A stretch of DNA of 64,000 nt. Source: Alphaproteobacteria bacterium (GTDB lineage Bacteria > Pseudomonadota > Alphaproteobacteria > CAAGCB01 > CAG-977). Position numbers and translations under genes: made by a program. Below, piece by piece: positions 23,804-27,378 of the stretch. The notes beneath the pieces are model-generated. The model worked only from the letters and a program-made list of their open reading frames with translations, did not search any database and was not told the origin of the DNA. Location of the stretch: the NCBI GenBank assembly GCA_017480385.1, contig JAFVAT010000007.1:26334-90333 (forward strand), read 5' to 3'. Positions within the stretch are counted from its first letter, which is position 1; each line of letters opens with the position of its first letter.

Positions 23804-24349
23804 TCACGAGTTTGAAGCGGCTGAAGTTTTCTTTTTTATTTCTAAATACTCGGCAACCCCTAACCCTCCATATAAAACCAGATAAAATCCTAACAACGTG
23901 GAAACGGTAAAAATTCCTAACAAAGGCGATCCTAAAATCCACAAACCGAATAAAATGCCTAAGAGGCCGGAAATTAAAAGCCATTTCCAAGTGGGATTTC
24001 CTGTCGCTTTGGAATCAAGTCCAACAGAAACCTGAAGCACGGCAATGCACAAAATCCAAATTGCTAATAAAAACGGTAGAGATTCGGCTGCTATGCCCAA
24101 ATTTAAAATCAAAACCCCTCCAAGAATAAAATCCAATAGCCCCATTGCCAATAACCACCCCGAGCGTAGCGAATAAAAATCCATTAAATAACCACAGCCG
24201 CTGATGATAAACATCACTCCCAGATAAAGCGCCGCAGCTAACAATGCCGAATCCGGAAAAATCCACGCCAAAATACCGGCAATAATCATAAAAACACTGG
24301 AAAGAAGCAAACCTTTCCTGACTTTTAAATCCTTTTTCGTTTCAGTCAT
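23804..24349 (-). CDS. HdeD/DUF308 family membrane protein
   Basis: Six hydrophobic helices with G.L.II.G...P..A patterns; AGGAG RBS upstream. Confidence 0.8.
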   Translation of the reverse strand: MTETKKDLKVRKGLLLSSVFMIIAGILAWIFPDSALLAAALYLGVMFIISGCGYLMDFYSLRSGWLLAMGLLDFILGGVLILNLGIAAESLPFLLAIWILCIAVLQVSVGLDSKATGNPTWKWLLISGLLGILFGLWILGSPLLGIFTVSTLLGFYLVLYGGLGVAEYLEIKKKTSAASNS

Positions 24350-24428
24350 CATATACTCCTTTGTTTTTTTCAACATAGCAAAAAACAAAGGAAAGGCTTA
24401 TCATCTTTAAGTTTATAACTCTTTGGTT

Positions 24429-25052
24429 TTATTTATCTTTCTTCTCTCTTTGCGTTAATTCGAAATTAGCGATCTTGATCGTTTCATAATAGGGCAGCAG
24501 AACTAAAAGAATTGAAATCAAAAGCAAATAAAGCCTTTGCCCGCTTAATTCGACAACATCAAACACGTCCAAAACGAAAAAGATCAGGATAAAAATATTC
24601 AAACCGATTGTTGCAAATTTTAAATTTCCGACAGCTGTTTTTTTCCGACTGTCCAATAAAGTTTCTTTTGCATTTTTTCCCTTCTGCACTAAGTTTTTAT
24701 AATCAAAGACAGAATTTCGGACCAACTGATTTTTTCGCACATCTATTGCTTCAAAAAAGGGTTCCGTTTCTTTGGGAAAAACCAAGTAACCGACAATATC
24801 CGGATTGACTTTTTCCGCTTCAGCCGTATAGCGTCGGAGCTGCTGTTTCCCGGCTTCTTCCGTCTGAGGCGTTCTTTTTGTTTTCAGTTCGAAAATCTGC
24901 AACGGCGTATTGGTATTTGGATCGACTATTGTTAAATCGGGGCGATATTTTCCTATTTTGTAATCGACTAAAATACTTTCCTCCGGATATCCCTTTTTCA
25001 TCAGGAAATCTTGTACGCTTTCCATCAAATCCCGTTGATTTTCCTCTGTCAT
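24429..25052 (-). CDS. PD-(D/E)xK nuclease domain (HsdR N-terminal-like) with two C-terminal TM helices
   Basis: GYP..I..EY-type segment, RPDLTI (PD), IFELK (ExK), QQLRRY (QxxxY); hydrophobic helices at about aa 147-190. Confidence 0.7.
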   Translation of the reverse strand: MTEENQRDLMESVQDFLMKKGYPEESILVDYKIGKYRPDLTIVDPNTNTPLQIFELKTKRTPQTEEAGKQQLRRYTAEAEKVNPDIVGYLVFPKETEPFFEAIDVRKNQLVRNSVFDYKNLVQKGKNAKETLLDSRKKTAVGNLKFATIGLNIFILIFFVLDVFDVVELSGQRLYLLLISILLVLLPYYETIKIANFELTQREKKDK

Positions 25053-25196
25053 TTCTTGTCCCGGCTTTATTGCATCATATTATTAATCTAAAAATTCCAA
25101 AGCCGGAAACAAGACGTTCATAGACTTATTTTCTAAATAAAACCTCTCTTCCCTTTTCAAAAGGATTACCCCTTGCCGTTTGGTTAAAATTATTTT

Positions 25197-25556
25197 TTAA
25201 ATAAACAAATATTCGCTGATATTGCTTTTTTCGGTATGGATATTGTTGCGAAAATGCGGATAGGGAATATCATAGAAATCAACAGATCCGAAAGCGCTCG
25301 CTTTTTCAAGAATGTTTTCTTTTTTCAACAGTCCTTCGGAATTATAGCTTAACACAAGCGTTGAACATTGAGCTTGAGAAAAAATTATTTCCAACCCTCT
25401 TTCGGCTTTTTCCTTATTGCAAAAATCGGATTTCTGATCGGAATATTCCCTCATTCCGGTAACGCCTCGCAAGAACGGATTGTCATATTTTGCTATCGTT
25501 TCCAGTATATGATAATTTGGCGCGTATTGCCGTCCATTATATGGTGGATCAATATA
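25197..25556 (-). pseudogene. C-terminal fragment of an N6-adenine DNA methyltransferase (D12 class, NlaIII/FokI-like)
   Basis: Manual translation YIDPPYNGRQYAPNYHILETIAKYDNP...LSYNSEGLL...EYLF. DPPY motif present; N-terminal SAM-binding part absent. Confidence 0.85.
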
Positions 25557-25880
25557 ACTGATTCTGTATATATTCTGCTATTTTATAAGCGTTCTTATCC
25601 GTGGTATCGACATAGTATCCCTTGCATCAAAATTCTTTGTTGAGATATTTGAACTTTATGTTCTTCCACCGCTCATAAACCATCAAACTGCTTTTTTTCT
25701 TTCAAAAATCACATAAATCCCGCCACACTTATTTTCGGTGGTATTTCGATCAACATATGTACGTGATGTTTACAATTCCATGTCGAAAGTGATAATGTCT
25801 TTATATCATTCGTTGTTAACTCCTTAGTCTCTGTTGCAGTTGCCGGATTGCATTCTGAATTTACCTAAGGAGTTTTTTTG
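25555..25880 (-). mobile_element. IS200/IS605 family tnpA relic
   Basis: Translates to NDIKTLSLSTWNCKHH/VHMLIEIPPKISVAGFM*FLK/SSLMVYERW..KFKY.NKEF*CKGYYVDT..KN...IAEYIQNQ. ACG in place of the start codon, internal deletion, two stops and a frameshift. 5' hairpin AACTCCTTAG/CTAAGGAGTT (25818-25827/25865-25874). Confidence 0.88.
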
Positions 25881-26053
25881 TGTAGAATTATAAGCTTTTC
25901 TGAACAATGTGCCCGGTGCGCAGTTTCCGGAGTATAAAAAAGCCCCGTTTTGAATTGTCCCTTGAAAATTGGACAGTAAAAAAAGTCCCGAAGATTGCGA
26001 TAGCAATTTTCGGGATAATTTTTTAACTTTAAGCCAAAAGGAAAGGATAATTC

Positions 26054-26440
26054 GTGAAGCATCACATTTTTACCAAAGAAGAACGAGAAGGATTGGAGAA
26101 TAATCCGAACATTTCCAAAGTTCTCAACAGCAATGTGGAATATACGGAGGAGTTCAAGCAAAAAGTATTGTCTGAACATAAAGAATTAGGAAAGACAGCA
26201 AAGCAAATATTTTCAGAAGCGGGAATACCTAATTGGTTTAATTGCGGCAAATACGCAAGTAAGTGTTTGGATAGATGGAAATATCAACAGCGGCACCGTA
26301 AAATAAAGAAAAGAGATCTCTCCAAGGTTGAGGAAAACAAACTTTTGCAAGAGATGAGCAAGCAAGAGCTAATAAAAGAAATACAATTATTAAGATTGGA
26401 GAATGAATTCTTAAAAAAACTCGAACCCTTGGAACAATAA
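26054..26440 (+). CDS. IS3 transposase OrfA
   Basis: HTH-type OrfA ending LRLENEFLKKL, with A7 slippery site TTAAAAAAAC near 26411. Confidence 0.85.
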   Translation: MKHHIFTKEEREGLENNPNISKVLNSNVEYTEEFKQKVLSEHKELGKTAKQIFSEAGIPNWFNCGKYASKCLDRWKYQQRHRKIKKRDLSKVEENKLLQEMSKQELIKEIQLLRLENEFLKKLEPLEQ

Positions 26441-27301
26441 AAAAAGAAGAATTAATCAAGATTGTATCCAAAGGGCGAAAGCTTGACTTGAGTGTAAAAC
26501 AAGTTTGTCAAATAACGAAAATATCAAGGAGTTCCTTCTATTATAAGATCAAGCATAAAGATGATAAATTTTTAAAAGATAAGAGCGCGTTGCAATTTAT
26601 AAAAAACGTCAAAAAGCAGGCATTCGAACTATCGCTATGATTTTGCAAAATAAATATGGCATCATAATGAACTTGAAGAAGATCGCGCGCATAAAAAAAC
26701 AATATGGTTTGACGCCCCGAATACGCAAGAAAAATCCATATAACGTGTTGTTTAAGAACGATTTGGAGCATCGAACGGCACCAAACCTGCTACAACGGAA
26801 ATTTGATGTAAATAAGCCGGATACGATATATTCAACCGACATCAGTTACTTGCTTTATAAAGACGGACAACGCGCGTATTTAAATGCGACGAAGGACTTG
26901 GCAACCAAAGAAATCGTTGCGTTTAACATCAGCAAAAACTTATCAATACAAACAGCGTTTATTGGTTTGGAGAAGGTGTTGAAACATAAGAATTGCTCAA
27001 AATTGATGATACATTCTGATCAAGGCGTGCATTATACATATCTGCTGTACATTCAAAAACTCAAAGAGTTCGACGTGACGCAAAGTATGTCGCGAAAAGG
27101 GAATTGTTTGGATAACGCTCTGATAGAAAGCTTCTTCAGACATTTGAAAGACGATATAGACATCAAAGCCTGCCGGACTTTTGAAAAGTGAAAACTCTGG
27201 TTGAAAATTATATCGATTATTATAAGAATGAACATTGTCAGTGGAACTTAAACAAAATGACACCGGCTCAACGCCGATGCCATTTGTTAAACCTCTCCTG
27301 A
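26412..27301 (+). pseudogene. IS3 transposase OrfB (DDE integrase core), frameshifted
   Basis: STDISYL, IHSDQG, SMSRKGNCLDNALIESFF motifs. Frame breaks near 26610 (NVK/KAGIRT) and near 27187 (FEK/VKTLVENYIDYY...MTP). Confidence 0.85.
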
Positions 27302-27378
27302 TGAACTGCCACGAGACTTTTTTTACTGTCCATTTTTCAGGGGACTGTTCATTTCGGGGCTTTTTTATCGTTTGCCGA

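What the first reader, a model, noticed from the sequence alone, without database searches (positions are those of the whole stretch)
24429..25052. Membrane-anchored PD-(D/E)xK nuclease next to a wrecked methylase: candidate defence effector
Seen in sequence: the N-terminal 130 aa carry PD (RPDLTI), ExK (FELK) and QxxxY (QLRRY) motifs of the HsdR-N type restriction fold, followed by two hydrophobic helices and a basic tail. Restriction-like nucleases fused to TM anchors are atypical of classic R-M systems and resemble nuclease/2TM effector architectures of abortive-infection systems (inference). The upstream co-oriented adenine methylase is truncated, so the intact nuclease must be harmless, regulated, or active on another target.
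Basis: partly seen in the sequence, partly recalled or inferred. Interest (0 to 1): 0.62.

Follow-up and report, generated by a model that had tools for sequence, protein, structure and literature searches.

The report
Membrane-tethered restriction-type nuclease, defence-linked family
An intact 207-residue gene encodes a restriction-enzyme-type nuclease domain held at the inner face of the cell membrane by a conserved two-helix hairpin; it belongs to a rare, uncharacterised family that often sits in defence islands and type I restriction operons, so it is a good candidate for a new single-gene barrier against foreign DNA.

Summary
ORF 24429-25052 (-) encodes 207 aa with RPD39, FE55LK57 and Q71xxxY75, then a helical stalk, two hydrophobic helices and a charged tail. 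AlphaFold (pLDDT 90) gives an alpha-beta-beta-beta-alpha-beta core. Its best fold and profile match is the BpuSI/HsdR-N nuclease.

The upstream gene is only the last ~120 of ~342 residues of a Dam-family methylase, cut off by an IS200 relic and an IS3 element.

- **Family.** There are 368 clusters at 50% identity, nearly all 200-230 aa with this architecture. D39 (103/104), E55 (97/104), K57 (91/104) and a C-terminal motif (P187, K193, G196, E198, R201) are conserved.
- **Distribution.** It is scattered across bacterial phyla and archaea. In the window's own order it is in 1 of 28 genomes, plus one remnant.
- **Selection.** dN/dS is 0.06 against an 84%-identical ortholog.
- **Databases.** It has no model of its own in PADLOC 2.0 or PHROGs.
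- **Context.** No relative has a Dam-like methylase neighbour, so that pairing is probably coincidental. In 7 of 38 loci (at least 4 independent origins) the gene is the last gene of a type I R-M operon. Other loci abut Hachiman, PIN or AAA_15 genes and transposases.

Best reading: a methylation-independent, membrane-sequestered nuclease working like SNIPE. A sensor-plus-pore abortive-infection reading is not excluded.

The parts
24429..25052 (-). Intact gene, 207 aa: HsdR-N-type PD-(D/E)xK domain, helical stalk, 2-TM hairpin and conserved tail
   Evidence: dN/dS 0.06 against ortholog L074
24723..25052 (-). Residues 1-110: nuclease core (helix 2-19, strands 27-29, 40-43, 50-56, helix 62-79, strands 87-93, 100-104). 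Catalytic candidates are D39 (24936-24938), E55 (24888-24890) and K57 (24882-24884); also D44 and Q71/Y75
   Evidence: AlphaFold pLDDT 92-96 over this part. Foldseek top hits are BpuSI, 3ijm, BsaXI, NucS and Hjc. The family profile against PDB hits BpuSI with D and ExK aligned. Conservation is D39 103/104, E55 97/104, K57 91/104
24618..24722 (-). Residues 111-145: poorly conserved, charged helical stalk between the nuclease domain and the membrane
   Evidence: Helix 118-163 in both models; lowest conservation of any segment, 1.18 bits
24486..24617 (-). Residues 146-189: TM1 (146-167), short acidic loop (168-173), TM2 (174-189)
   Evidence: Hydropathy and flanking charges; TM2 conservation of 2.3 bits is as high as the catalytic core; P187 is present in 103/104
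24432..24485 (-). Residues 190-207: conserved cytoplasmic tail. Here it reads ETIKIANFELTQREKKDK; in the main family it reads SKLKILGIEFERL
   Evidence: K193 77/104, G196 80/104 (N here), E198 88/104, R201 71/104 (Q here)
25054..25114 (-). Hairpin in the 5' leader whose 3' arm ends 3 nt before the ATG and covers the GGGA Shine-Dalgarno-like bases
   Evidence: MFE -21.5 kcal/mol, z = -3.0. Only the inner CCGGC/GCCGG stem is kept in ortholog L074, where z = -1.2
25197..25577 (-). Stump of a Dam-family (D12 class) adenine methylase: C-terminal ~120 residues with DPPY, and no AdoMet-binding half
   Evidence: PADLOC MTase_II E=2.4e-16 at profile positions 249-338 of 343; tblastn matches residues 219-338 of a 342-aa Roseobacter plasmid methylase
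25558..25947 (-). Frameshifted IS200/IS605-type transposase relic, a multi-copy repeat that truncates the methylase
   Evidence: 75-86% identical copies (longer matches) at the ends of a dozen or more contigs of the same genome; peptide pieces HHVHMLIEIPPK and AEYIQNQLY
25934..27368 (+). IS3-family element with 57-nt imperfect terminal inverted repeats and broken orfA/orfB
   Evidence: Inverted repeat 25934-25990 / 27312-27368, 86% identity; ORFs
23804..24388 (-). Downstream DUF308/HdeD-like membrane protein. It is a core gene of the genus and marks the edge of conserved synteny (TolC-MacA-MacB-DUF308)
   Evidence: Pfam DUF308 E=2e-19; present in 15/15 genomes of the genus; synteny

Best explanation
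The gene encodes a stand-alone, membrane-tethered DNase of a rare, horizontally spread family that belongs to the prokaryotic defence gene pool.

Shown:
- The N-terminal ~110 residues adopt the HsdR-N/BpuSI-type PD-(D/E)xK fold, with the D39, E55, K57 site intact.
- A ~35-residue helical stalk leads to a C-terminal two-helix membrane hairpin with a conserved cytoplasmic tail. Predicted topology is N-in/C-in.
- The gene is intact and under purifying selection.
- The family is patchy across bacteria and archaea. It recurrently sits as the last gene of type I R-M operons and next to other defence genes and transposases.

Inferred:
- The hairpin holds the nuclease at the inner face of the membrane, away from the nucleoid. 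Self DNA is spared by location rather than by methylation.
- DNA entering through the membrane (phage injection, conjugation) is cut there.
- This is the logic demonstrated for SNIPE, which uses an unrelated GIY-YIG nuclease.
- The conserved TM2 and tail probably mediate dimerisation or auto-inhibition.
- The adjacent Dam-like methylase stump is debris of the same variable, IS-ridden spot, not a partner.
For: Fold and active site. TM hairpin and topology.

Functional gene: dN/dS 0.06.

Family size and constant architecture: 368 clusters, nearly all 200-230 aa with full-length matches.

Patchy distribution:
- 1 full copy plus 1 remnant in 28 genomes of the order.
- No further hit among the other 400 genomes sampled from the class.
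- Hits in Bacillota, Bacteroidota, Fibrobacterota, Spirochaetota, Myxococcota, Methanoregula and Nanoarchaeia.

Context:
- It is the last gene of hsdR-hsdM-hsdS operons in 7/38 loci. Gaps range from an overlap to 97 nt in five loci; in L057 and L067 one or two small ORFs intervene.
- The tree needs at least 4 independent origins of this linkage.
- Other neighbours are a Hachiman HamA and helicase pair, PIN, DUF4411, DUF4145, DUF4268, AAA_15, Schlafen-AlbA2 and PLD.
- Transposases are the commonest neighbour class.
- In the window it lies at a synteny break. In relatives this spot is a tRNA-adjacent variable site that holds a toxin-antitoxin-like gene pair (RelE/HTH read from the sequences, not searched) in one genome and a decayed copy of this gene in another.

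Precedents: the functional precedent is SNIPE (PMC13190303). Embedding of independent defence genes in type I R-M loci is documented (PMC11411939; bioRxiv 10.1101/2024.01.29.577857).
Against: - There is no experimental datum for any member.
- The window protein alone is below Pfam's cut-off (20.6 against 25 bits), and Foldseek E-values are marginal (3e-3 to 5e-3).
- In the window's own alphaproteobacterial clade, 7 of 17 members have lost E55 yet keep the hairpin and tail almost invariant. Some function therefore survives without catalysis, which fits a pure nuclease model poorly.
- The TM and tail are as conserved as the active site. In SNIPE the anchor is the least conserved part.
- The close homologs sit among housekeeping genes.
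- No member was found on plasmids or phages.
- The defence-island association was counted on 38 loci only. Its significance was not tested against a genome-wide background.
Confidence: 0.4

Rival explanations
1. Sensor-plus-pore abortive-infection protein. The PD-(D/E)xK domain mainly binds invader DNA or DNA ends (or a phage protein). This drives oligomerisation of the conserved hairpin and tail, which permeabilise the inner membrane and kill or arrest the infected cell. Cleavage is dispensable or secondary.
For: TM2 and the tail are as conserved as the catalytic core (2.3 against 2.15 bits). P187 is nearly invariant, and a small residue (G178) recurs in TM2 of the main family. Seven of 17 members of the window's clade lost E55 but keep LPYYETIKVANFELTQK. 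It is a single-gene system with no partner. 2-TM modules are recurrent predicted membrane-permeabilising effectors.
Against: D39, E55 and K57 are kept in 88-99% of the wider family. There is no match to SLATT or any other known pore-forming module in 104 members. Two helices and a short tail are a minimal anchor. No toxicity data exist.
Confidence: 0.25
2. Accessory component of restriction-modification systems. It would be a membrane-docked extra HsdR-type nuclease that works with, backs up or is licensed by a type I R-M complex, in the way PrrC is held by EcoprrI. The solitary copy in this window would then be an orphan.
For: It is the last gene of hsdRMS operons in 7/38 loci, abutting the last hsd gene (overlap to 97 nt) in five of them, with at least 4 independent origins. 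The domain is homologous to the HsdR N-terminal nuclease.
Against: 31 of 38 loci have no R-M genes within 6 kb. The HsdR proteins in the linked operons keep their own HSDR_N nuclease. The family member is not a recent copy of the neighbouring HsdR. Other, unrelated defence genes are embedded in the same operons (AAA_15, Schlafen), which suggests co-location rather than a complex.
Confidence: 0.1
3. Not a defence gene. It would be a lineage-adapted membrane protein that uses a (sometimes inactive) nuclease fold for another task, such as tethering or processing DNA at the membrane. Alternatively it is a slowly decaying passenger of mobile DNA.
For: Close homologs sit among housekeeping genes (FTHFS, MutS, PriA, PBP1, SodC). 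Catalytic residues are lost in part of the clade. There are no PADLOC or PHROG models, and no copies on plasmids or phages.
Against: It is missing from 26 of 28 genomes of its own order, and one relative holds only a 45-codon remnant. That is not the pattern of a needed housekeeping gene. dN/dS of 0.06 argues against decay. The recurrent R-M and defence neighbours are unexplained by this reading.
Confidence: 0.15
4. Surviving nuclease of a former type II R-M pair with the adjacent Dam-like methylase. This is the pairing implied by the first reader.
For: The two genes are co-oriented and 145 nt apart, and the methylase is of a kind found in R-M systems.
Against: No relative has such a methylase nearby. 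The 84%-identical ortholog shows no similarity to the methylase 3' end in its 180-nt upstream flank. An active orphan restriction enzyme would be lethal, yet the gene is under strong purifying selection. The family architecture (TM hairpin) is constant with or without any methylase.
Confidence: 0.05

Closest known systems
N-terminal endonuclease domain of type I HsdR and type IIG enzymes (Pfam HSDR_N_2/HSDR_N; BpuSI, PDB 3s1s)
   Same: Same fold and same D...ExK site. BpuSI is the best hit by both profile and Foldseek. 36 of 104 relatives match HSDR_N_2.
   Different: Here the domain stands alone (207 aa) without a helicase motor, methylase or specificity domain. It is fused to a C-terminal 2-TM hairpin with its own conserved motif.
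SNIPE (PD-lambda-1), a membrane-bound nuclease that cleaves phage DNA during injection (Nature 2026, PMC13190303)
   Same: Single-gene system. [quoted passage not shown] There is no methylase, so discrimination would be by location.
   Different: The nuclease fold is unrelated (GIY-YIG against PD-(D/E)xK). There is no DUF4041. The SNIPE anchor is N-terminal, single-pass and poorly conserved; here it is a C-terminal, two-pass hairpin that is highly conserved. Activity of this family is untested.
Defence genes embedded in or appended to type I R-M operons (PrrC, TgvAB, RloC; 'guilt by embedding', Payne et al. 2024)
   Same: In 7/38 loci the family member is co-transcribed in orientation and spacing with hsdR/M/S, alongside other embedded genes such as AAA_15 and Schlafen-AlbA2.
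   Different: It has no sequence relation to those proteins. It is always the last gene rather than between hsd genes. Most family members, including the window copy, are solitary.
2-TM effector modules of CBASS/Thoeris/Pycsar-type abortive-infection systems (e.g. SLATT)
   Same: A two-helix membrane module is fused to a nucleic-acid-related domain, and the gene occurs in defence neighbourhoods.
   Different: There is no SLATT or other effector match in 104 members, and no cyclase, TIR or other signal-generating partner gene. The nuclease site is conserved.

Membership tests
PD-(D/E)xK superfamily, HSDR_N_2 (PF13588) | Score at or above Pfam's gathering threshold | tested here: inconclusive
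   The window protein scores 20.6 bits against a cut-off of 25 (E=5e-4). 36 of 104 relatives match at E<0.01, best 6.3e-9.
PD-(D/E)xK superfamily, HSDR_N_2 (PF13588) | alpha-beta-beta-beta-alpha-beta core fold | tested here: met
   AlphaFold pLDDT is 92-96 over residues 11-110. All leading Foldseek hits are PD-(D/E)xK nucleases (BpuSI probability 0.98-1.0, 3ijm, BsaXI, NucS, Hjc), although E-values are only 3e-3 to 5e-3.
PD-(D/E)xK superfamily, HSDR_N_2 (PF13588) | Catalytic D ... (D/E)xK on strands 2 and 3 | tested here: met
   D39, E55 and K57 are present. They are conserved in 103, 97 and 91 of 104 relatives and align to the D / E-x-K of BpuSI.
Type I restriction enzyme HsdR subunit | SF2 helicase/translocase motor (ResIII, Helicase_C) after the nuclease domain | tested here: not met
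   The protein has 207 aa and no such domains. Genuine HsdR proteins next to relatives have them.
Type I restriction enzyme HsdR subunit | hsdM and hsdS in the same locus | tested here: not met
   None near the gene in the window. They are present in 7 of 38 related loci only.
Type II restriction-modification pair | Intact cognate methylase adjacent | tested here: not met
   Only residues 219-338 of a ~342-aa Dam-family methylase remain. No relative has one.
SNIPE / PD-lambda-1 | GIY-YIG nuclease plus DUF4041 | tested here: not met
   No such Pfam or PADLOC matches for the window protein or for 104 relatives.
SNIPE / PD-lambda-1 | Inner-membrane anchor with a cytoplasmic nuclease; toxicity when the anchor is removed; cleavage of injected phage DNA | not testable with these tools
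   Topology is predicted only, from hydropathy and charge. The rest needs experiments.
Known anti-phage systems in PADLOC-DB 2.0 | Match to a system model | tested here: not met
   The window protein gives only Cas4 at E=0.01. Among 104 relatives there are scattered single weak hits (Tin, mad2, Cas4) and no family model.
SLATT / other 2-TM abortive-infection effectors | SLATT-type domain and a signal-generating partner gene | tested here: not met
   No SLATT hit in 104 members. No recurrent partner in 38 loci apart from type I R-M.

The most novel reading that the evidence does not exclude
This family is a second, evolutionarily independent invention of location-based self/non-self discrimination. 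It would be a PD-(D/E)xK nuclease parked at the membrane by a conserved, functionally active hairpin and tail, cutting DNA as it enters the cell in both bacteria and archaea. It would often be deployed as an add-on to type I R-M operons to catch DNA that escapes methylation-based restriction. A more unusual variant: the nuclease fold acts as a DNA sensor that gates a minimal two-helix pore.
Probability: 0.3. Interest if true: 0.75.

Novelty: new variant of a known kind. Interest (0 to 1): 0.58.

Why it matters
Membrane sequestration of a nuclease as a means of telling self from non-self was demonstrated only in 2026, for one family (SNIPE). An unrelated nuclease fold with the same layout would suggest the strategy is general and ancient, given three features found here: it occurs in archaea as well as bacteria, it has a conserved anchor motif, and it is repeatedly attached to type I R-M operons. 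It would also add a compact (~210 aa) single-gene candidate to the defence catalogue. The clade in this window, where some members have lost the catalytic glutamate but keep the membrane module, offers a natural experiment on which half of the protein carries the function.

Tried and rejected
- **Lineage core gene:** rejected. It is present in only 1 of 28 genomes of the order, plus one remnant, and no further hit was found in the other 400 genomes sampled from the class.
- **Conserved partner gene:** none found. An all-against-all comparison of 383 neighbours from 38 loci found only type I R-M as a recurrent neighbour.
- **Split HsdR whose nuclease is supplied in trans:** rejected. The neighbouring HsdR proteins keep their own HSDR_N domain.
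- **Recent duplicate of the adjacent HsdR:** rejected.
- **Phage- or plasmid-borne gene:** no hits in IMG/VR by pattern, in 50,697 phage records, in 72,556 plasmids or in PHROGs. The pattern search and the single tblastn query are of limited sensitivity.
- **Direct sequence match to a solved structure:** none for the single protein.
- **Literature:** searches for the HsdR-N plus TM architecture found no description.
- **First attempt at search for related loci:** it failed on the 104-sequence alignment, which was too diverse, and was repeated with 20 sequences.
- **Hairpin at the ribosome-binding site:** real in this genome, but only its inner stem is kept in the closest ortholog. It is not used as evidence.

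Full report
**1. The observation**

The minus-strand ORF 24429-25052 encodes 207 residues.

Pfam gives sub-threshold matches to HSDR_N_2 (E=5e-4, 20.6 bits against a cut-off of 25), HSDR_N and PDDEXK_9.

Two AlphaFold models were built. The first used 17 close homologs (pLDDT 82). The second used 35 diverse homologs (pLDDT 89.9, pTM 0.72). Both give the same layout:
- helix 2-19, strands 27-29, 40-43 and 50-56, helix 62-79, strands 87-93 and 100-104;
- then one long helix, 118-163, and a second, 171-206.

Foldseek against the PDB returns only PD-(D/E)xK nucleases at the top: BpuSI, the 3ijm restriction-fold protein, NucS, BsaXI, DrdV, Cas4 and Hjc. Probabilities reach 1.0, but E-values are modest at 3e-3 to 5e-3. 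The two long helices depress the scores.

A profile of 104 relatives hits BpuSI by sequence. Its catalytic D and E-x-K align to D39 and E55-x-K57.

Hydropathy shows two membrane-spanning segments, 146-167 and 174-189. Flanking net charges are +3, -2 and +1. This predicts that both the N-terminal domain and the C-terminal tail are cytoplasmic.

**2. The methylase and the surroundings**

The upstream co-oriented ORF matches only profile positions 249-338 of 343 of a type II methylase model. It also matches only residues 219-338 of a 342-aa Dam-family methylase from a Roseobacter plasmid, at 47% identity. The DPPY motif is present. The AdoMet-binding half is absent from the whole assembly.

The break at about 25558-25577 coincides with the start of a ~390-bp repeat. 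Copies of this repeat lie at the ends of a dozen or more contigs of the same genome. The repeat carries frameshifted pieces of an IS200-type transposase. It is itself interrupted by an IS3 element, 25934-27368, with 57-nt inverted repeats.

On the other side, TolC-MacA-MacB-DUF308 is syntenic across the genus, and DUF308 is in 15 of 15 genomes. In four relatives the far side of DUF308 is a variable spot. Three of them have a tRNA gene there and three have LexA:
- One relative has a toxin-antitoxin-like gene pair there. The RelE/HTH identity was read from the sequences and was not searched.
- One relative (G016) keeps only the last 45 codons of the gene studied here.

So the gene lies in a small, unstable, mobile-element-rich spot.

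**3. The family**

A word-based search found only 19 close homologs, all from uncultured gut or rumen Alphaproteobacteria.

The exhaustive profile search found 368 clusters (at 50% identity) with E<=1e-3, and 192 with E<=1e-10. Almost all are 200-230 aa and match end to end. The architecture is therefore the unit of conservation.

Conservation in 104 representatives:

| Position | Conserved in |
|---|---|
| D39 | 103/104 |
| E55 | 97/104 |
| K57 | 91/104, plus 4 R |
| Q71 | 76/104 |
| Y75 | 48 Y, 19 F |
| P187 | 103/104 |
| K193 | 77/104 |
| G196 | 80/104 |
| E198 | 88/104 |
| R201 | 71/104 |

The main-family tail reads P-F-A-S-K-L-K-I-L-G-I-E-F-E-R. TM2 and the tail are as conserved as the catalytic core (2.3 against 2.15 bits). 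The stalk is the least conserved part, at 1.2 bits.

36 of 104 members match HSDR_N_2, best E=6.3e-9. No member matches a PHROG. PADLOC 2.0 has no model for the family, only scattered single weak hits. One NCBI record names a member 'type I restriction enzyme HsdR N-terminal domain-containing protein'.

The window gene compared with its 84%-identical ortholog gives dN/dS 0.06, with saturated dS.

One oddity: in the window's own clade 7 of 17 proteins have lost E55, and three more have ExR. All of them keep the hairpin and tail almost unchanged.

**4. Distribution**

- In the window's own order the gene is in 1 of 28 genomes, plus one remnant.
- In a sample of 401 genomes of the class, only the window's own genome had it.
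- Related loci come from Bacillota, Bacteroidota, Fibrobacterota, Spirochaetota (two copies 10 kb apart), Myxococcota, Methanoregula and Nanoarchaeia.
- A further 26 loci come from metagenome contigs.
- None was found on plasmids, in phage genomes or in IMG/VR.

This is the pattern of an accessory gene moved by horizontal transfer.

**5. Neighbourhoods**

The five close homologs examined lie among unrelated housekeeping genes and share no neighbour.

An all-against-all comparison was made of 383 neighbours from 38 loci. The only recurrent neighbours are type I R-M subunits. In 7 loci (6 if two near-identical ones are merged) the family member is the last gene, co-oriented, after the hsd genes. 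In five loci it abuts the last hsd gene, from a 4-nt overlap to a 97-nt gap. In L057 and L067 one or two small ORFs intervene. Pfam confirms:
- an EcoEI-type HsdR with its own HSDR_N domain;
- HsdM (N6_Mtase with HsdM_N);
- HsdS;
- further embedded genes in the same operons (AAA_15/AAA_21, Schlafen-AlbA2).

On a maximum-likelihood tree this linkage needs 5 changes. Well-supported branches force at least 4. The linkage is therefore recurrent rather than inherited once. All linked members lie in the half of the tree that also holds the window's clade.

Other loci place the gene:
- directly before a Hachiman pair (HamA and a DEAD helicase);
- beside PIN, DUF4411, DUF4145, DUF4268, PDDEXK_5, IrrE/HTH, UvrD-type helicase and PLD proteins.

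Transposases are the commonest neighbour class. No related locus holds a Dam-like methylase. The closest ortholog shows no similarity to the methylase 3' end in the 180 nt available upstream.

**6. Interpretation**

The fold, the conserved active site, the constant membrane hairpin, purifying selection, patchy cross-domain distribution and repeated attachment to type I R-M operons and defence islands all point one way. This is most likely a single-gene defence-type nuclease that does not depend on a methylase.

The best current model is the one shown experimentally for SNIPE. There, membrane anchoring keeps a non-specific nuclease off the chromosome and places it where phage DNA enters. Removing the anchor makes it toxic (PMC13190303). 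Independent defence genes riding in type I R-M operons are a documented phenomenon (PMC11411939; Payne et al. 2024).

Two facts keep a rival open. The hairpin and tail are as conserved as the active site, and part of the window's clade has lost the catalytic glutamate. In that rival the nuclease fold senses DNA and the membrane module is the effector (abortive infection).

A role as a true R-M subunit is less likely. A non-defence role is also less likely.

**7. Comparison and novelty**

By membership, the N-terminal domain belongs to the HsdR-N/BpuSI branch of PD-(D/E)xK nucleases. Fold and catalytic motif are met. The Pfam threshold is met by relatives but not by this protein alone.

The protein is not:
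- an HsdR (no motor);
- a type II R-M enzyme (no cognate methylase);
- SNIPE (different nuclease, no DUF4041);
- a SLATT-type effector.

No description of this architecture was found in the searchable literature.

I class it as a new variant of a known kind: a membrane-anchored defence nuclease, or a restriction-linked accessory gene. Function is untested.

Noticed in passing
window 25558-25947: A ~390-bp repeat with frameshifted IS200-type transposase pieces. Copies at 75-86% identity (longer matches) sit at the ends of a dozen or more contigs of the same genome, so this element probably fragments the assembly.
   Followed up: partly
window 25934-27368: IS3-family element with 57-nt imperfect inverted repeats (86% identity) and a broken transposase. 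It lies between the IS200 relic and the carD gene.
   Followed up: partly
window 25054-25114 (minus strand): A 16-bp hairpin with a 28-nt loop ends 3 nt before the start codon of the nuclease gene and covers its GGGA (dG -21.5 kcal/mol, z -3.0). Only the inner CCGGC/GCCGG stem is kept in the 84%-identical ortholog L074 (z -1.2).
   Followed up: partly
L013 1519-1656 (genome G016, same genus): A 45-codon remnant (residues ~163-207, TM2 and tail) of the same gene lies between a tRNA gene and the DUF308 ortholog. The gene was once present there and has been deleted from the 5' side.
   Followed up: partly
own genome contig C39, 40551-49491: LexA and a tRNA gene are followed about 8 kb further on, at the contig end, by a second copy of the tRNA 3' part and its downstream sequence (89% over 190 nt). 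This looks like an integrated island flanked by att-like repeats. In relatives this LexA-tRNA pair is next to DUF308.
   Followed up: no
L029 8662-9370 (genome G009): At the equivalent spot beside DUF308 this relative carries what looks like a RelE-like toxin and HTH antitoxin gene pair instead of the nuclease gene. The identity was judged from the sequences only and was not searched.
   Followed up: no
A1 alignment (P0010-P0013, P0015-P0017): Seven of 17 close alphaproteobacterial homologs have replaced the catalytic E55 (A, V, I or a gap), and often K57 as well. They keep D39, R37 and the C-terminal LPYYETIKVANFELTQK almost invariant.
   Followed up: partly
L038 and L040 (Spirochaetia MAG OY764216.1, ~3.34 Mb): Two diverged copies of the family lie 10 kb apart. 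Each is followed by a 397-aa ORF on the opposite strand. Mutator-family transposases were tallied among these neighbours, and the 429-aa and 162-aa neighbours are repeated in inverted order. This is possibly a composite mobile structure.
   Followed up: no
L068 7938-12596: A family member overlaps by 4 nt the start of a HamA-like gene, which is followed by a 1045-aa DEAD-box helicase. This is a Hachiman-type pair directly downstream.
   Followed up: partly
own genome contig C24, 87691-88641: A full-length but distant (23% identity) D12-class adenine methylase homolog exists elsewhere in the genome. It is unrelated to the stump beside the nuclease gene.
   Followed up: no
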